A DNA stretch of 64,000 nucleotides from Candidatus Saccharimonadota bacterium (lineage in GTDB: Bacteria > Patescibacteriota > Saccharimonadia > Saccharimonadales > Saccharimonadaceae), in the NCBI GenBank assembly GCA_030445265.1, contig JAUCSC010000001.1, positions 482,494 through 546,493 of the forward strand, given 5' to 3'. A program made the translations under genes and the position numbers. Below the pieces are notes generated by a model that was given only the letters and a program-made list of their open reading frames with translations, was not told the origin of the DNA and did no database searches. Below, piece by piece: positions 2,484 through 8,249 of this stretch; position 1 is the first letter of the stretch, and every line of letters begins with the position of its first letter.

Positions 2484-3176
2484 ATGTGCGGACGATACAC
2501 CCTCTATCAAATTGAAAAACTCCAAGCTCGTTATAATCTCAACAAAAAAGAAGCGGCGGCATTACTCAGAGAGCTAAAAAAACGGTACAACATCGCCCCC
2601 ACGCAGTTTAGCCCCGTAGTGACTGAGGATAAAGATAAGAACACACACATCGAAATGATGCGTTGGGGCTATATGCCCGCGTGGGCCAAAGATCCAAAAG
2701 ACGTATTCAAGTACAAGACCTTTAATGCCCGCTCTGAAGAGATATTCGGTAAACGGACATGGAAGGACGCTATACTGTATCGTCGCTGCCTCATACCGGC
2801 CAACGGCTTTTACGAGTGGCAGAAAAGAGAGGATGGTAAGCAGCCTTACTTTATTAGGCCTCACGACGATGAGTTGTTCTCATTTGCCGGGCTCTACGCC
2901 ACATGGAATAATGGCGGCGTGTCATATAATACCTTTTCGATACTGACAACAAATCCAAATGACCAGATGGAAAGTATACACAATCGCATGCCTGTCATTT
3001 TACACAGAGATCAAGAGAGTGAATGGCTCAATAACAACATGACCGACCCAGATCACATAACCAATTATATGGCTCCGTACGAAAACGGTTCACTCGAGCT
3101 TTTTGAGGTAAGTAGGGATGTAAATGCGTCGCGCATTGACGACGAAACATTGGTTATGCCCATCAATTCACGATGA
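2484..3176 (+). CDS. SOS response-associated peptidase (SRAP/YedK/HMCES family), abasic-site protein
   Basis: N-terminal MCGRY, FNARSE, GFYEW and IHNRMP; intact Cys/Glu/His set. Confidence 0.93.
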   Translation: MCGRYTLYQIEKLQARYNLNKKEAAALLRELKKRYNIAPTQFSPVVTEDKDKNTHIEMMRWGYMPAWAKDPKDVFKYKTFNARSEEIFGKRTWKDAILYRRCLIPANGFYEWQKREDGKQPYFIRPHDDELFSFAGLYATWNNGGVSYNTFSILTTNPNDQMESIHNRMPVILHRDQESEWLNNNMTDPDHITNYMAPYENGSLELFEVSRDVNASRIDDETLVMPINSR

Positions 3177-3182
3177 ATTTCC

Positions 3183-3545
3183 TTAACCGATTTGTTGGAG
3201 CGCCCAGGTGTTTCCTGTTGGGTCGCTAAAATGAGCATATTTTACTCCACCCATATCATCGACTTCGCTGATCTCAAGTCCGCGTTCGACTAGTTCATTG
3301 CGCGCAGCCTCAATATCATCCACTACGAGGTGAATATTCTGAACAGGCGATGCATTCTCGGTACCCATACCTGTACCGATTGCTATCGAGCATGCTGATC
3401 CCGGAGGAGTGAGCTGAATAATATGCATACCATTGCCAGGCTCAACATCATGATCAAGATGAAAGCCGAGGGTATGTTCGTAAAAGTCTTTAGCCTGCTG
3501 GATATCGTTAGCTGGCAGGGGTATAAGCTCTATCTTCATAGTCAT
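3183..3545 (-). CDS. VOC/glyoxalase family protein
   Basis: DIQQAKDFYEHTLGF...HLVVDDIEAARNEL...FSDPTGNTWAL. Confidence 0.85.
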   Translation of the reverse strand: MTMKIELIPLPANDIQQAKDFYEHTLGFHLDHDVEPGNGMHIIQLTPPGSACSIAIGTGMGTENASPVQNIHLVVDDIEAARNELVERGLEISEVDDMGGVKYAHFSDPTGNTWALQQIG

Positions 3546-3550
3546 CGCTA

Positions 3551-3970
3551 CTACTGGTTGCCTTCGCTATTAATATTGACCATCCAGTTTATGCCAAATT
3601 TATCGACAAAATAGCCAAAAGAATCGCCCCATGATTCGGTTTTGAGCGGCTGCTTGACTTGTCCTTCAGCTGATAGCTTATCGAACGCCAGCGAAAGTCG
3701 ATCGTGGTCGGTTCCAGACAGCGCAATTGCCACATTATCACCGACTGTTGGTGGGTAGTCGGGATGACCATCAGAACCCATGATACGTAGTCCGTCGGAC
3801 GACAGCATACCGTGCATTATCGGATCTTCGGGGCCAGCTTCTTTCGGTGGGCCAGCAGGATCCGCTGCCATAAGCGTCAGCTCACCGCCGAGTGCGTCAT
3901 GATAAAACTCTAATGCCTTTCGCGCCTGTCCCTGAAAGTTGATGTATGGATTTGCTGATATTTGGCTCAT
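3551..3970 (-). CDS. VOC family protein (PhnB-like)
   Basis: PYINFQGQARKALEFY...WGDSFGYFVDKFGINWM. Confidence 0.87.
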   Translation of the reverse strand: MSQISANPYINFQGQARKALEFYHDALGGELTLMAADPAGPPKEAGPEDPIMHGMLSSDGLRIMGSDGHPDYPPTVGDNVAIALSGTDHDRLSLAFDKLSAEGQVKQPLKTESWGDSFGYFVDKFGINWMVNINSEGNQ

Positions 3971-4085
3971 ATGACCCCTAAACCTTTTTTACAGATATTC
4001 TATCTGAATTGTACGCGCATGCGAACCTTTAACAAGTATAGCTATTTCGGTCAGGGTGGGGGAGAGCGCTTGCGCAGAGTCTCTC

Positions 4086-4247
4086 AAAAGCAAAGAGAGA
4101 CATTTACATGTCTCTCTTCTGGGAAGATTTGCACCAACAGATGTGACCTACGAACTAAATAATTGAACCATTGAACATTTGTACATTGAACTATTGAACT
4201 TGTTTGGTCACACATAATGATATGTGCTGTATCACTTGATCTTCCTA
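4086..4247 (-). ncRNA. Candidate stand-alone small RNA (~160 nt) with a GUUCAAU-repeat loop
   Basis: Own sigma70 promoter; closing stem GGAAGAT/ATCTTCC; inner stem GTGTGACC/GGTCACAT; 11-bp terminator stem at 4093-4118. Confidence 0.5.
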
Positions 4248-4253
4248 CTCATT

Positions 4254-4282
4254 ATTTTACCAAGGCATTTTTTGGTCGTCAA
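4254..4282 (-). promoter_or_regulatory. sigma70-type promoter
   Basis: TTGACG-17 nt-TAAAAT with TG extension. Confidence 0.65.
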
Positions 4283-4339
4283 CATTTTTTTTGACTTTTT
4301 TATTAATTGTTTACGCTTAACAGAGATGCACTGGTTATT

Positions 4340-4690
4340 TTAAAAATTCTTATCAAGCGACGCCTTGATGAGGGCCTTCAAGCTTGCTCTATCAATGATC
4401 GCGTCCTCTCGTAGATCAATCGCTCTCGACTTTTTTGCGTCAAACCCATTATTAAATAGGTGATTGGCGTCATCCACTAAGGCACCATTAGCAATAAAAT
4501 TATACTTGGTGTGCGCCTTGAAAGCCGACATCGCAAAAATCATTTTACCGTCCACTAAAAATACCGGCACGTTCCATTTGAAGTCTTCGGTTACTGAAGG
4601 AGAAGCCTCGTGAATTAAAGTCCGGAATAATGATAGATTCTTCTTTTGCCATTCAGGCAACGCGTTAAGGTATTCCTCGATTTTGTCCAT
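4340..4690 (-). CDS. DUF1801 (YdeI/YdhG-like) protein
   Basis: IEEYLNALPEWQ...LIHEASPSVTEDFKWNVPVF. Confidence 0.8.
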   Translation of the reverse strand: MDKIEEYLNALPEWQKKNLSLFRTLIHEASPSVTEDFKWNVPVFLVDGKMIFAMSAFKAHTKYNFIANGALVDDANHLFNNGFDAKKSRAIDLREDAIIDRASLKALIKASLDKNF

Positions 4691-4763
4691 ATCAACATCA
4701 TAGCAAACTTGCGTGCCTTATGTTTTTCCGATCAAGAACTGCACATATATGTATACTAGGCAC

Positions 4764-5522
4764 ATGAACATCAAAGCAGTTGTGTCTGATATCGATGGGA
4801 CTCTCGTCCAGTACTGTCCCGATCTTTCTGGTCTTGATGAAGCCGATGCCCTGATTGCGGCAAGCACCATCGATGCCATCAGCCGGCTTCATCAGAATGG
4901 GCTTATTGTCGCTGGGGTTACGGGGCGCACCTATGAACAGTCTAGAGACGTGTTGACTCGACTCGGCATCACGGGCCCTTGCGTCTTTGCTGGTGGAGCA
5001 ACGATCCGGGATCTGCCGAGCGGAGAGATCTTGTACGAAGCGAGTCTGGCGCCGCACACACTGATAGCAGTAAAAGCCATTTTGCTTGAAATACTCGGCG
5101 ATGATTACCCACTCGATATCGCTCCGTCCGCCAAAGATCCGAACAGCTATAACTCAGTGTGGGCTATTGTTGAACGTACTAAGATAGCTATCATTGCTGA
5201 GCAGCTCGCAGCCTTGAATGATATATATCATGTCGTAAACGACGGGGCGGGCAAGCAAGATGAGGTCGGACTTCTTGTCCTACAAGCGGGCGTCGATAAG
5301 GGAAGCGCTACAAAGCGCCTCCTGTCACTACTGGCCCTCGAGAAGACCGAGGTAGCCTGTATCGGCGACGGAGCAAATGATGTATTGATGTTTGAGCAAT
5401 GCGGAGTCACATTTGCCATGGGCAACGGCGAGCAGTCTTTAAAAGATCAGGCAAATTATATTGTCAGCGACATTGATAAAGATGGCTTTGCTGAAGCAGT
5501 CGATATCATTCTGCGTCTCTAG
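4764..5522 (+). CDS. Cof-type HAD hydrolase
   Basis: VSDIDGTL, VTGR, GVDKG and GDGAND motifs; start set at ATG 4764 just after TATACT. Confidence 0.88.
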   Translation: MNIKAVVSDIDGTLVQYCPDLSGLDEADALIAASTIDAISRLHQNGLIVAGVTGRTYEQSRDVLTRLGITGPCVFAGGATIRDLPSGEILYEASLAPHTLIAVKAILLEILGDDYPLDIAPSAKDPNSYNSVWAIVERTKIAIIAEQLAALNDIYHVVNDGAGKQDEVGLLVLQAGVDKGSATKRLLSLLALEKTEVACIGDGANDVLMFEQCGVTFAMGNGEQSLKDQANYIVSDIDKDGFAEAVDIILRL

Positions 5523-5959
5523 GGTATTAACTCGTGATCAGCACAGTAGTTGATTGCATTTTTGTAAAACGGGCGAAACTCGGTACTTTGCGTGAGGCCT
5601 GCGAGCGGCACCCACTCATATGACGCATGCTCCCAACTAATTCTTACGTCAGGCGTATGGTCGAGGAATGCGAGATAGAAGAGCTTGGTGATGGACTTGT
5701 GCCCTTTCTCTACGTATTCCGTCTCCGTGTAAGCAAGTTGGATCCTGCTACTATCAATTTCGATACCAGCCTCTTCTTTAATCTCTCTGATGACCGCTTC
5801 ATGCTCAGATTCACCTGGATCGACGAGTCCGCCCGGCAAATCGGGTTTGAATGATTTTTCTGGATGCGACTTATATTCGCCAACGGTTAAGATAAGAGCT
5901 TGGTTCTTCTCATTCACCACCAGAGCTTTGGCTACCGATATAATCGTTGCTTTAGTCAT
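5519..5959 (-). CDS. NUDIX hydrolase
   Basis: Nudix box GGLVDPGESEHEAVIREIKEEAGI. Confidence 0.9.
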   Translation of the reverse strand: MTKATIISVAKALVVNEKNQALILTVGEYKSHPEKSFKPDLPGGLVDPGESEHEAVIREIKEEAGIEIDSSRIQLAYTETEYVEKGHKSITKLFYLAFLDHTPDVRISWEHASYEWVPLAGLTQSTEFRPFYKNAINYCADHELIP

Positions 5960-6034
5960 AGATCCATTCTAACAAAACGACACGTTTTATATCATAGCGT
6001 TGTACAATAAGATTATTAGACGAAAGGGTGAGCG

Positions 6035-6115
6035 ATGAGTAAAGGAACGGGTCAGAAAAAAGCTGTTAAAAAGCCAAAAAAAGATAAGAAGGTTAAAGTT
6101 GCTACTAGCAGCTAG
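6035..6115 (+). CDS. 26-aa Lys-rich microprotein (not in ORF track)
   Basis: MSKGTGQKKAVKKPKKDKKVKVATSS*; TACAAT -10 and GAAAGGG SD upstream; terminator downstream. Confidence 0.55.
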   Translation: MSKGTGQKKAVKKPKKDKKVKVATSS

Positions 6116-6124
6116 CTAAAACAT

Positions 6125-6150
6125 AAAGTCTCCACTGCGGAGACTTTTTT
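6125..6150 (+). terminator. Intrinsic terminator, possibly bidirectional
   Basis: AAAGTCTCC-ACTGC-GGAGACTTT followed by Ts. Confidence 0.75.
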
Positions 6151-6198
6151 GTTAAGTTTCTGATCATTGAGCCTGCGCTATGGCTCCTATTGACCCGT

Positions 6199-6753
6199 TT
6201 ATCGCATTGTCTTTAATGCTGTCGCCCAGCGCTGTAGCTCAGTGAGTAGCGTATTAGCAGATTTTACTTGCTGCTCAGTCGCCTGGAATACCTCATCGTC
6301 TAAAAGCGTTTTGACATTTATGATATTGACCGCTTCGTAGACAGGCATCATTTTTAGACTAGTGACTAATGGCTTGATGCTTTGTACGGACCGCATGCCA
6401 CCCGATATGCCACCGTAGCTGACAAATCCAACAGGCTTATAATTCCATTCTTTATAGAGATAATCGAGCGCATTGATAAGGCTCGCAGGAGCATTATGGT
6501 TGTACTCCGGCATGACAAACACGAACGCATCGGCGGCATTAATCTTTTCCGCCCATGCTTTGGTATGCTCTTTAGTATATTGCTGCAGGTTCGGCTCATT
6601 CGGTTCATCAAGTAAGGGTAAGTTTATTTTCGCCAGATCGGAGATCGAAACTTCGAAGCCCTGAAAGCCTTTGGCGACGTCGGCAAACCACTCAGCCACT
6701 GGCAGCCCGCGTCGGCCTGGACGCGTACTCGCAATAATAATTTCTAATTTCAT
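6199..6753 (-). CDS. NADPH-dependent FMN reductase
   Basis: IASTRPGRRG, FVMPEYNHN and VSYGGISGG; GGAGG SD before ATG 6753. Confidence 0.9.
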   Translation of the reverse strand: MKLEIIIASTRPGRRGLPVAEWFADVAKGFQGFEVSISDLAKINLPLLDEPNEPNLQQYTKEHTKAWAEKINAADAFVFVMPEYNHNAPASLINALDYLYKEWNYKPVGFVSYGGISGGMRSVQSIKPLVTSLKMMPVYEAVNIINVKTLLDDEVFQATEQQVKSANTLLTELQRWATALKTMR

Positions 6754-6989
6754 TTTAGGCTCCTCCAAACTACATACTCCTTGAATATACAATTGCGCAA
6801 TTAGATGATGACTTGCTCCTTCAAAAGGTGCTTAGCCATCCAGTCAAGCAATACAATTCCTTTTTCTATACTTTGATTATACAACAGTAATCGATTAGCT
6901 ACTGGCGTGCTGCTTCAACGTACGGCAGTCCGCCAACGTATCCAAAGACTTAGCCTTATTATACAAATAGCGGAGAAGTACCGATTGAA

Positions 6990-8249
6990 CTATTGCTCTG
7001 CAAATACATTTGTGTCCTGGATTGAACCTTGGCCGGCACGTGCAAGATACTCAACAAGCTCAGGGGATTGCTCGTAAAGGCGAGCCATTAAGAGTACTGC
7101 CTTTTCTTGAAGGATAGGCGATTCGCTCGACTCAACCGTCCAGCGATTCCAGTTTCCTATTAAGTCCTGTCCGAGGGAGGCTTTATCCTCAACAATGTTA
7201 GTCAGCCCGTACTCATTGGCAGCCGCAACGCGAGAATCTATCTCATCAATTTTTGATTGAATCTCAGCTTTTTCGGCTTCAGTAGATGCAAACTGGATAT
7301 CGGTCATGAGACCCTGATCGTTCTTAAGCTTAAATGCTTCGTCATCACCATAATAGCCCTGGGTATCGGCGTAGAAATTGAATTTTCCCTCGGCTGGCGG
7401 TGGATTAATCTCGTCGTACTGTTCATCCCGCATAGCTCCTATAGGGCCACACTGTTGATGATCCCAGAGGTGAAACATCTCATGTACTAAGACCGTGCCG
7501 CTGCCAGTCTTGTAGTCTATATATACCGTGTTGTTTTCGAGCTGATCCGGGACAACAAAGCCAGCGACGTCGCTGCTGACTGTATCGGTCAGAATAATCC
7601 GCTGTAGGCCCATAGCTTGCACGAGCTCAACAGGAAGATCACCCACACTCGATATAAGACTGTACAACACTCGCTTTGTTTCAAGACTATTCTCGGATAC
7701 CAGACTCTCATAGCTATATGGCTTACTACTGGTTGGCACCGCGAGTTCAGTGTTGCTTACTTCTGCGCTAGAAAAGACAATAGAAACTCCATACCGTGAG
7801 AGAAATTCTTCAGAGTGTTCGAAATATGTTTCGGCAGAAATAACGGATGTGTCGGCATATAAATCAACTGACAAATCAGCCATCTCGCTCCTGTAATCGT
7901 AAACCGTAAGGCCGAGCTCATTTGCCACGGACTTTTTCTTTTCTTTTTGCGCTTTTAGGTAATCATCAACTGAATCACTACCGCCCATGATTTCTGATTT
8001 CGACCAAGTCTCGGCATATACATCCTCGGTTTCATCGATGACCTCATCAGGAACGATGGCGCATTCTTTATCGTATCGGGGGTCTATATCAGTATCGTAC
8101 GGCGTGCTTGATATCGTCGGCTTCGGCGTCTCGGCAGTCGTACAGCCTGATAAGTTAAGTGCTAGAGGCACTGCTATAGCGAGGGTTGCGACCTTTCTCG
8201 AGAACGGATATTTATCGCTCGAGTCCTTGAGAAATTTTTCGTAATTCAT
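6990..8249 (-). CDS. Acidic lipoprotein-like protein with a zincin HExxH motif (putative metallopeptidase)
   Basis: Hydrophobic segment ending LSGC; VLVHEMFHLWD; later YGLTNIVEDKA; consensus TTGACA-17-TATAAT promoter upstream. Confidence 0.6.
   Translation of the reverse strand: MNYEKFLKDSSDKYPFSRKVATLAIAVPLALNLSGCTTAETPKPTISSTPYDTDIDPRYDKECAIVPDEVIDETEDVYAETWSKSEIMGGSDSVDDYLKAQKEKKKSVANELGLTVYDYRSEMADLSVDLYADTSVISAETYFEHSEEFLSRYGVSIVFSSAEVSNTELAVPTSSKPYSYESLVSENSLETKRVLYSLISSVGDLPVELVQAMGLQRIILTDTVSSDVAGFVVPDQLENNTVYIDYKTGSGTVLVHEMFHLWDHQQCGPIGAMRDEQYDEINPPPAEGKFNFYADTQGYYGDDEAFKLKNDQGLMTDIQFASTEAEKAEIQSKIDEIDSRVAAANEYGLTNIVEDKASLGQDLIGNWNRWTVESSESPILQEKAVLLMARLYEQSPELVEYLARAGQGSIQDTNVFAEQ

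What the first reader, a model, noticed from the sequence alone, without database searches (positions are those of the whole stretch)
4086..4282. Candidate sponge-like small RNA presenting repeated GUUCAAU in one large loop
Seen: a complete minus-strand unit with a TTGACG-17-TAAAAT promoter and an 11-bp terminator stem. The ends pair (GGAAGAT/ATCTTCC; GTGTGACC/GGTCACAT) around a ~57-nt loop holding four GTTCAAT copies plus GTACAAAT and GTTCGT, at roughly 8-nt spacing. Established: repeated exposed motifs typify protein-titrating RNAs (CsrB-type), and GUUCRA is the tRNA T-loop motif. Inference: a decoy RNA for an RNA-binding or T-loop-recognising protein. Alternatives are a divergent 6S RNA or a DNA-level binding array.
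Basis: partly seen in the sequence, partly recalled or inferred. Interest (0 to 1): 0.7.

Follow-up and report, generated by a model that had tools for sequence, protein, structure and literature searches.

The report
New Saccharibacteria small RNA with GUU-repeat loop
This is a real, previously undescribed small non-coding RNA gene found in about a tenth of Saccharibacteria genomes; a conserved folded scaffold displays a variable row of AGUU motifs, which most likely binds a protein several times over, though the partner is unknown.

Summary
Window 4282-4086 (minus strand) is a self-contained gene for a small RNA of about 160 nt. It has a TTGACG-17-TGnTAAAAT promoter, a folded core at 4245-4122 and an intrinsic terminator.

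- **Family:** a covariance model built here finds the RNA in 8 of 40 genomes of the genus, 13 of 151 of the order (13 different genera) and 1 of about 143 elsewhere in the phylum. About 73 named Saccharibacteria/Saccharimonadales assemblies and at least 60 distinct metagenome sequences also carry it. None was found on viral contigs.
- **Fold:** helices P1 and P3 show strong compensatory changes. The junction nucleotides are almost invariant.
- **Loop:** 33-60 nt, only 9% C, with 2-9 GUU (mean 4.95 against 1.28 in shuffles), mostly as AGUU spaced 8 or 4 nt apart.
GUUCAAU is a local variant. GUUCRA makes up only 20% of GUU sites, so the T-loop-mimic idea is not supported.
- **Excluded:** no Rfam family matches, including 6S. 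The 43-codon ORF is not conserved. Neighbouring genes differ from locus to locus, so it is not a leader.
- **Partner:** CsrA, Hfq and Ro60 were not found. Single-domain RRM proteins are near-universal and are the best, but untested, candidate.

The scan noted this element before in other genomes (e1-2808681, e1-4534014).

The parts
4254..4282 (-). Sigma-70-type promoter: -35 TTGACG (4282-4277), 17-nt spacer, extended -10 TGgTAAAAT (4262-4254). An A-rich tract lies upstream (about 4283-4300).
   Evidence: 10 of 12 matches, TG present. The same AAAAAGTsTTGACGA-17-TGnTAAAWT arrangement precedes the RNA in all 20 loci inspected.
4239..4245 (-). P1 5' strand, GGAAGAU. The transcript probably starts 1-3 nt upstream (about 4248-4246).
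   Evidence: Pairs with 4128-4122. The seventh pair covaries (C-G 41, U-A 30, U-G 3) over 79 distinct sequences.
4216..4238 (-). 5' junction module CAAGUGAUACAGCAC plus a variable tail. It forms the local hairpin P2 (AGUGAU 4236-4231 with AUCAUU 4221-4216, loop ACAGCACAU).
   Evidence: CAAGUGAWACAGCAC is nearly invariant. P2 is paired in 84% of cells. Its loop-closing pair switches between U-A (29) and A-U (26). P2 is poorly kept in some lineages.
4206..4213 (-). P3 5' strand, GUGUGACC.
   Evidence: Pairs with 4148-4141. Four of its 8 pairs show changes on both sides (for example A-U 39 / G-C 38, and G-C 48 / A-U 24). 98.6% of cells are paired.
4149..4205 (-). 57-nt C-poor terminal loop carrying the repeat array: four GUUCAAU (4199-4193, 4191-4185, 4176-4170, 4168-4162), GUACAAAU, and the conserved 3' unit UUAUUUAGUUCGUA.
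   Evidence: In 77 distinct homologues the loop is 33-60 nt and holds 2-9 GUU (mean 4.95, shuffled 1.28). GUU-to-GUU spacing is 8 nt in 140 and 4 nt in 58 of 304 intervals. The unit consensus is WWAGUU(A/C)(G/A)WW.
4141..4148 (-). P3 3' strand, GGUCACAU.
4129..4140 (-). 3' junction strand, CUGUUGGUGCAA.
   Evidence: CUGUKGGUGCAAR is nearly invariant. This holds even in about 60 distinct metagenome homologues found with a pattern that did not include it.
4122..4128 (-). P1 3' strand, AUCUUCC.
4086..4119 (-). Intrinsic terminator: 12-bp stem (4119-4108 with 4103-4092), GUAA loop, then UUUGCUUUU.
   Evidence: Every homologous locus has a hairpin plus T-run 2-14 nt after P1, usually AAGAGGCAC-loop-GUGCCUCUUUUUU, and the stem covaries.

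Best explanation
Window 4282-4086 (minus strand) is a stand-alone gene for a small non-coding RNA of about 160 nt. The family is specific to Saccharibacteria (order Saccharimonadales) and is not in Rfam 15.

Shown:
- A strong constitutive-type promoter, and an intrinsic terminator immediately after the fold.
- A closing helix P1 and a helix P3, both supported by covariation.
- An almost invariant junction.
- A variable, C-poor terminal loop built from 2-9 copies of an 8-nt unit whose constant part is AGUU.

Inferred:
- The RNA acts in trans as a multivalent binding platform. The conserved scaffold holds the loop open.
- The phased AGUU units bind several copies or several domains of a single-strand RNA-binding protein. 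The RNA would either titrate that protein away from mRNAs or assemble it into a particle.
- Copy number appears to have changed by tandem duplication of units, as in this window.

The most plausible partner class is the small glycine-rich RRM-1 protein that nearly all of these genomes encode. Specific recognition of the invariant junction by a second factor is equally open.
For: Independent gene:
- Promoter and terminator are conserved in all 20 loci inspected.
- The RNA is the only part of window 3400-5000 with DNA matches in the other 39 species of the genus.

Structured RNA:
- 94.4% of cells are paired against 88.1% in shuffles and 34-43% in slid controls. 11 pairs have changes on both sides, and 140 cells carry such changes.

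Non-coding:
- Loop lengths fall evenly into the three classes modulo 3.
The median longest sense ORF is 6 aa.

Motif array:
- GUU is about four-fold enriched over composition-matched shuffles.
- Spacing is 8 or 4 nt, the preceding base is A in 85% of sites, and loops are 9% C.
- Copy number ranges from 2 to 9, while the flanking helices stay fixed.

Not an antisense RNA through its best-conserved loop segment:
- The 12-mer complement CCTACKAACTAA occurs essentially only inside the gene itself in 19 genomes that carry the RNA.
- A BLAST search of the RNA region against its own genome found only the gene itself.

Not cis-acting:
- Neighbouring genes differ from locus to locus, and many downstream genes lie on the opposite strand.

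Candidate partner:
- RRM_1 proteins occur in 142 of 151 genomes of the order. G000 has one, 113 aa with a Gly-rich tail.
- CsrA and Hfq were not found in five genomes that carry the RNA.
- By analogy, the single-RRM protein RbpB of Bacteroides binds G/U/A-rich single-stranded RNA presented as three repeats (GUAGGAUA, KD 5 uM) and does not bind a C/U-rich motif (bioRxiv 10.1101/2021.04.27.441718).
Against: - No expression data were available and no protein partner was identified.
- RRM genes are not enriched next to the RNA: 1 in 1.03 Mb of flanks, about as expected by chance.
- The RRM protein is near-universal, while the RNA occurs in only about 9% of genomes. The pairing is therefore not obligate.
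- The mean predicted unpaired probability of the loop is only 0.50, so it may be partly structured.
- The near-invariance of the junction is not explained by a pure sponge model. It could mean that the key function, such as ligand or protein recognition or catalysis, lies there and the loop is secondary.
- Short seeds of 6-8 nt for base pairing cannot be excluded.
Confidence: 0.45

Rival explanations
1. Base-pairing regulatory sRNA. The repeated AGUU-containing units and the conserved UUAGUUCGUAGG segment would be redundant seeds that pair with AACU-containing sites in mRNAs and control translation or decay.
For: The architecture is typical of trans-acting sRNAs: an independent promoter, an exposed single-stranded region and a terminator hairpin. 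Multicopy seed motifs are known from C-rich sRNAs of Gram-positive bacteria (own knowledge).
Against: No complementary 12-mer was found outside the gene itself in 19 genomes that carry the RNA, apart from one extra hit. The own genome has no antisense match at BLAST sensitivity. The constant part of the unit is only 4 nt. Loop length and unit sequence drift freely between lineages, which is unusual for a seed that must co-evolve with its targets. No Hfq was found.
Confidence: 0.2
2. The functional centre is the invariant junction: a ligand-binding aptamer, a ribozyme-like core or the specific docking site of one protein. The GUU loop would be a tolerated, slippage-prone appendage.
For: CAAGUGAWACAGCAC and CUGUKGGUGCAAR are almost invariant across families, and this holds independently of how the homologues were collected. 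The helices around them covary. This pattern is typical of aptamers and ribonucleoprotein (RNP) cores.
Against: The loop is never lost or shortened below 33 nt, and it always keeps at least 2 GUU with A at position -1 and 8/4-nt phasing. That indicates selection on the loop as well. There is no expression platform, because the terminator does not compete with P1, and there is no conserved downstream gene.
Confidence: 0.2
3. A divergent housekeeping RNA: 6S RNA, an SRP or 5S-like RNA, or a Y RNA.
For: The RNA has paired ends and a central conserved internal loop. The 6S, SRP, RNase P and tmRNA models found nothing anywhere in this genome with the tool used.
Against: - No Rfam hit with E of 10 or better to any of these families at the locus or in seven homologous loci.
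- The helices are only 7-8 bp, too short to mimic an open promoter.
- The RNA is present in only about 9% of genomes of the order, and one genome keeps only a truncated remnant (G009).
- A genuine 5S rRNA lies elsewhere in the genome.
- No Ro60/TROVE protein was found.
- This assembly is incomplete: 77.55% by marker genes, 30 tRNAs and no tmRNA by ARAGORN. The missing housekeeping RNAs therefore say little.
Confidence: 0.04
4. A cis-acting leader or attenuator for the downstream gene, or a DNA-level array of protein-binding sites (iterons or operators).
For: The element lies in a 369-bp intergenic region upstream of a co-oriented PhnB-like gene. The repeats are short and phased like operator arrays.
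Against: - Downstream genes are unrelated between loci and often on the other strand. The commonest downstream family is found in only 9 of 72 loci.
- A full terminator separates the RNA from the next gene, and no alternative pairing competes with it.
- Compensatory base changes preserve RNA helices on one strand.
- There is one copy per genome and no conserved partner gene.
Confidence: 0.04

Closest known systems
CsrB/RsmZ-type protein-titrating sRNAs (CsrA sponges)
   Same: An independently transcribed sRNA with a terminator. It carries many copies of a short motif exposed in single-stranded regions, and the copy number varies between relatives. The presumed action is multivalent protein binding.
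   Different: The motif is AGUU in one large loop, not GGA in many hairpin loops. No CsrA gene was found in the genomes that carry the RNA. There is no Rfam match. The RNA also has a nearly invariant junction that Csr sponges lack.
sRNA ligands of bacterial single-RRM proteins (Bacteroides RbpB with the FopS and GibS sRNAs)
   Same: The organisms lack Hfq and CsrA but encode small RRM-1 proteins. RbpB binds G/U/A-rich single-stranded RNA repeats in vitro and binds abundant sRNAs, possibly titrating them (PMC11697453).
   Different: FopS RNAs are about 65-70 nt seed-bearing sRNAs with no repeat array and no structured scaffold. No binding data exist for any Saccharibacteria RRM protein. There is no sequence relation.
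6S RNA
   Same: Paired ends flank a conserved internal loop. The RNA is probably abundant and comes from a strong promoter.
   Different: No hit to RF00013. The core is about 125 nt with helices of 7-8 bp, not a rod of about 185 nt. Distribution is patchy. The large terminal repeat loop has no counterpart in 6S.
TRAP and HutP target RNAs (phased triplet repeats bound by ring-shaped proteins)
   Same: Regularly phased short motifs (here AGUU, often within UAGUU) on single-stranded RNA. This suggests wrapping around, or lining up on, an oligomeric protein.
   Different: Those arrays are cis-acting leaders with 5-7-nt phasing that control a terminator. This one is a trans-encoded RNA with 8/4-nt phasing and no regulated downstream gene. 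TRAP and HutP genes were not searched for here.

Membership tests
Independent bacterial sRNA gene | Own promoter and own intrinsic terminator, conserved together with the RNA | tested here: met
   TTGACG-17-extended -10 and a hairpin plus T-run in all 20 loci inspected.
Independent bacterial sRNA gene | Conserved secondary structure supported by compensatory changes | tested here: met
   94.4% of cells paired, 11 pairs changed on both sides. 0 of 500 shuffles reached the observed paired percentage, changed-cell count or covariation score, and 1 of 500 reached the count of changed pairs. Slid controls gave 34-43% paired.
Independent bacterial sRNA gene | A discrete transcript is detected | not testable with these tools
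   No RNA-seq or metatranscriptome data were available.
CsrB/RsmZ (CsrA sponge) | Multiple GGA motifs in loops, and a match to the Rfam models | tested here: not met
   The repeated motif is AGUU. No Rfam hit.
CsrB/RsmZ (CsrA sponge) | CsrA encoded in the genome | tested here: not met
   PF02599 was not found in 5 genomes that carry the RNA.
6S RNA (RF00013) | Match to the covariance model | tested here: not met
   No hit with E of 10 or better at the locus or anywhere in the genome.
6S RNA (RF00013) | Long irregular rod with a central bubble that mimics an open promoter; near-universal in a lineage | tested here: not met
   P1 is 7 bp and P3 is 8 bp. The RNA is present in 13 of 151 genomes of the order.
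   73 of 373 GUU sites read GUUCRA, and only 18 of 77 loops have two or more.
Bacterial Y RNA (YrlA) | Ro60/TROVE protein in the genome, and a match to the Rfam model | tested here: not met
   PF05731 was not found in 5 genomes that carry the RNA. No Rfam hit.
Riboswitch or attenuator leader | Conserved downstream gene on the same strand, and a terminator that competes with the aptamer | tested here: not met
   downstream genes are unrelated and many are on the opposite strand; the terminator is separate from P1.
Type III antitoxin RNA (ToxI-like) | Tandem repeats of about 34-47 nt, followed by a terminator and a toxin gene | tested here: not met
   The units are 8 nt. There is no conserved downstream gene.
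5S rRNA (RF00001) | Match to the covariance model | tested here: not met
   The 5S gene of this genome lies at G000:C1:644908-645017 (83.9 bits). The locus studied here gives no match.

The most novel reading that the evidence does not exclude
This would be the first protein-sequestering or RNP-scaffold small RNA of the candidate phyla radiation. A Saccharibacteria-specific RNA would use a phased AGUU array to bind several copies of the lineage's glycine-rich RRM-1 protein. That is a bacterial counterpart of eukaryotic sponge RNAs for RNA-binding proteins. The invariant junction would add a second, specific recognition site.
Probability: 0.15. Interest if true: 0.8.

Novelty: new variant of a known kind. 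Interest (0 to 1): 0.6.

Why it matters
Almost nothing is known about RNA-based regulation in Saccharibacteria or other ultra-small episymbiotic bacteria. No paper in the searched library describes an sRNA family from them, and Rfam 15 has no matching family.

This work provides:
- a well-supported new RNA family, with about 140 distinct sequences, a covariance model and a secondary structure;
- a clear two-module design, consisting of an invariant junction and an expandable motif array.

The design makes concrete, cheap predictions: EMSA with the cognate RRM protein, loop copy-number series and mapping of metatranscriptome reads. If the multivalent-binding model holds, it would show how bacteria that lack Hfq and CsrA buffer a global RNA-binding protein. 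It would also give a handle on post-transcriptional control in organisms that are hard to grow.

Tried and rejected
- **Rfam:** the window was searched at gathering thresholds. The locus and seven homologous loci were searched at permissive E-values. Only chance hits appeared (U12, NBR2 and similar, E above 1).
- **Housekeeping RNA models in the own genome:** 6S, small and large SRP, RNase P and tmRNA gave nothing or only tRNAs. This is uninformative, because the assembly is incomplete (30 tRNAs).
- **5S mimicry:** I recalled a 9-nt identity (AAGUGAAAC) to E. coli 5S rRNA. This genome's own 5S does not share it, and the 5S model does not hit the locus. Dropped.
- **Conserved neighbour or partner gene:** none was found in flanks of ±1.5 kb or ±4 kb.
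- **Best neighbour candidate:** an unannotated 128-aa CxC...C...H protein, 'cl1', lies immediately downstream in 9 of 72 loci. It co-occurs with the RNA more often than expected (6 shared genomes against 1.6 expected) but is not obligate. Its AlphaFold model was too poor to search with (pLDDT 58), and the Atlas lists it only as a hypothetical protein.
- **Mobile-element origin:** there were no hits in viral contigs, no integrase and no terminal repeats were seen. No empty site could be recovered, because the flanking genes have no DNA homologues in the genus.
- **Integron attC site:** considered because the neighbours look like small cassettes. Rejected, because there is one copy per genome and no RYYYAAC/GTTRRRY boxes.
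- **Pseudoknot ACAG/CUGU or GCAC/GUGC:** cannot be tested, because both sides are invariant. One compensated case (G215) and one uncompensated case (L186) were seen.
- **RRM gene adjacency:** not enriched.
- **Pattern scans:** seven non-CPR genome hits and seven metagenome hits to the search patterns are chance matches that fail the model or the fold.

Full report
**1.

- The promoter is TTGACG (4282-4277), a 17-nt spacer and TAAAAT (4259-4254), preceded by TG. It scores 10 of 12 consensus matches.
- GGAAGAU (4245-4239) pairs with AUCUUCC (4128-4122).
- GUGUGACC (4213-4206) pairs with GGUCACAU (4148-4141).
- These helices enclose a 57-nt loop with four exact GUUCAAU copies. The whole window holds 12 copies on both strands, against about 10 expected.
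- A 12-bp terminator hairpin (4119-4092) is followed by UUUGCUUUU.
- The 162-nt transcript folds to -42.7 kcal/mol, z = -3.4 against dinucleotide shuffles.

**2. It is a conserved RNA gene**

- BLAST against relatives found the same unit in seven other species of the genus and in two other families.
- I built covariance model R1 from eight sequences. It finds the RNA as follows:
  - 8 of 40 genomes of the genus, one of them a truncated remnant;
  - 13 of 151 genomes sampled from the order, each in a different genus, at 79-128 bits;
  - 1 of about 143 genomes from the rest of the phylum.
- A 20-mer from the 3' junction retrieved 82 places in the species-representative genome collection.
  - About 73 are labelled Candidatus Saccharibacteria, Saccharimonadales or Patescibacteria, and they match R1 at 72-134 bits. 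They include the complete genome CP025011.1.
  - Two MAG contigs labelled Chloroflexi and Dormiibacterota also match R1, presumably through mis-binning.
  - Seven non-CPR hits fail the model, which fits chance expectation.
About 60 distinct real homologues were among the 80 returned.
- Nothing was found on viral contigs.
- The genus tally includes the unpublished genome G029 as a genome without a match. The RRM tally below includes the unpublished genome G072.

**3. Anatomy**

- Every locus inspected keeps AAAAAGTsTTGACGA, a 17-nt spacer and TGnTAAAWT a few bases before GGAAGA. Every locus also keeps a hairpin plus T-run 2-14 nt after P1.
- Over 79 distinct sequences, 94.4% of cells in the 21 modelled pairs are standard pairs. 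Shuffled controls give 88.1% and slid controls 34-43%. Eleven pairs carry changes on both sides.
  - P1: the seventh pair is C-G in 41 and U-A in 30 sequences.
  - P3: examples are A-U 39 / G-C 38, G-C 48 / A-U 24, and C-G 68 / U-A 8.
  - P2: a small local hairpin that is weaker (84% paired). Its loop-closing pair still flips between U-A (29) and A-U (26).
- The junction strands, 5' CAAGUGAWACAGCAC and 3' CUGUKGGUGCAAR, are almost invariant. The 3' strand stays invariant even when the search pattern did not include it. I cannot explain this conservation. Tertiary pairs ACAG/CUGU or GCAC/GUGC are possible but cannot be tested.

**4. The loop**

Measured in 77 distinct homologues:
- The loop is 33-60 nt long and its lengths spread evenly over the three classes modulo 3.
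- Composition is 39% U, 32% A, 20% G and 9% C.
- It holds 2-9 GUU, mean 4.95 against 1.28 in mononucleotide shuffles.
- The base before GUU is A in 85% of sites.
- GUU-to-GUU spacing is 8 nt in 140 and 4 nt in 58 of 304 intervals.
- The unit consensus is WWAGUU(A/C)(G/A)WW.

Lineages differ in the unit they use. This genus has AGUUCAAU, and others have AGUUAGUA, AGUUAGAU or AGUUUGUU. The window's RNA is an expanded version of its relatives' loop, with extra GUUCAAU units. GUUCRA accounts for only 73 of 373 GUU sites, so the resemblance to a tRNA T-loop is local and not a family feature.

**5. What it is not**

- **Not coding.** The median longest sense ORF is 6 aa.
- **Not a known family.** Rfam 15 gives no family hit at the locus or in seven homologous loci.
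- **Not 6S, SRP, 5S or Y RNA.**
  - There are no model hits.
  - The helices are too short and the distribution is patchy.
  - One genome keeps only a truncated remnant.
  - A true 5S gene lies elsewhere in the genome.
  - No TROVE protein was found.
- **Not a leader.**
  - Immediate neighbours are unrelated between loci: NUDIX, DUF1801, VOC/PhnB, heliorhodopsin, GH10, phosphoketolase and many others.
  - Many downstream genes are on the other strand.
- **Better conserved than its surroundings.** Within the genus, only the RNA part of window 3400-5000 has any DNA match. It is either under strong selection or exchanged between lineages.
- **No mobile-element features.** No integrase or terminal repeats were seen.

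**6. Mechanism**

- The design is a rigid conserved scaffold that presents a phased array of short motifs with variable copy number. That points to multivalent binding of a single-strand RNA-binding protein.
- The most conserved loop segment has no complementary 12-mer outside the gene itself in 19 genomes that carry the RNA, apart from one extra hit in G064. The own genome has no antisense match. This weakens, but does not exclude, a base-pairing role.
- CsrA and Hfq were not found in five genomes that carry the RNA.
- Small RRM-1 proteins are present in 142 of 151 genomes of the order. G000 has one of 113 aa with RNP motifs and a Gly-rich tail.
- In Bacteroides, which also lacks Hfq and CsrA, the single-RRM protein RbpB behaves as follows:
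  - it binds a G/U/A-rich 8-mer presented as three repeats, and does not bind a C/U-rich one (10.1101/2021.04.27.441718);
  - it associates with abundant sRNAs (PMC11697453).
- This is an analogy, not evidence. RRM genes are not enriched near the RNA, and the RRM protein is far more widespread than the RNA.
- I therefore commit to 'trans-acting, multivalent protein-binding sRNA' at about 0.45, and to the RRM protein as partner at about 0.15. The base-pairing model and the junction-centred model each stand at about 0.2.

**7. Novelty**

No paper in the searched library describes an sRNA family of Saccharibacteria or Patescibacteria, and Rfam has none that matches. Earlier first-stage notes of this scan had flagged the same element in two other genomes without follow-up. 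I rate it a new RNA family and a new variant of the repeated-motif, protein-binding sRNA kind. It was found by sequence alone, and its function is unproven.

Noticed in passing
L005 (G009:C3, about 210558-210701): One species of the genus keeps only a remnant. The -35 box (GTGTTGACGA) is joined directly to the 3' third of the RNA (UUAUUUAGUUCGUAGG...terminator), just downstream of a tRNA gene. The RNA therefore seems dispensable there. In L010 and L012 the intact RNA also lies just after a tRNA 3' end.
   Followed up: partly
L084:863-1246 (-), alignment A8; G000:C1:188484-188867 and 425330-425668: An unannotated, well-conserved 128-aa protein family (ERRQIENEMIFRRANEKV...CECSDENC...H; no Pfam hit) is the commonest gene immediately downstream of the RNA (9 of 72 loci). 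It occurs in 18 of 151 genomes of the order. It shares 6 genomes with the RNA, against 1.6 expected. One copy in G000 sits between two tRNA-Arg genes. Its AlphaFold model was poor (pLDDT 58).
   Followed up: partly
G000:C1:285334-285543 (-) and the order-wide tally: Single-domain RRM_1 proteins with glycine-rich tails are near-universal in Saccharimonadales (142 of 151 genomes). CsrA and Hfq were not found in the five genomes tested. These proteins may be the lineage's general RNA-binding proteins.
   Followed up: partly
whole genome G000 (645,641 bp, 1 contig): ARAGORN finds only 30 tRNAs and no tmRNA. The Rfam models for SRP RNA, RNase P RNA, tmRNA and 6S found nothing through the genome search. 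The 5S rRNA lies at the very end of the contig (644908-645017). The contig is probably an incomplete chromosome, or these RNAs are too divergent for the tool's first look.
   Followed up: partly
window 2484-8249: The sRNA sits in a run of small accessory genes: SRAP/YedK-like peptidase, two VOC/PhnB-like proteins, DUF1801, a Cof-type HAD hydrolase, NUDIX and an FMN reductase. Similar grab-bags (NUDIX in 14 of 72 loci, plus DUF1801 and VOC) surround the RNA in other genomes without conserved order.
   Followed up: partly
G082 (L048, L060); L122 and L135; L069 and L124; L127 and L128: Four assemblies carry two copies of the RNA of clearly different subtypes. These could be real paralogues, horizontal acquisition or MAG contamination. 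One G082 copy is of the subtype typical of this window's genus, although G082 belongs to another family.
   Followed up: no
window 4008-4035 and 4060-4084 (-): Between the sRNA terminator and the PhnB-like gene lie two weaker promoter-like sites (TTGTTA-16-TACAAT and TTCGCA-17-TAGAAT) and a short GC-rich palindrome (GAGAG...CUCUC). The downstream gene probably has its own promoter.
   Followed up: no
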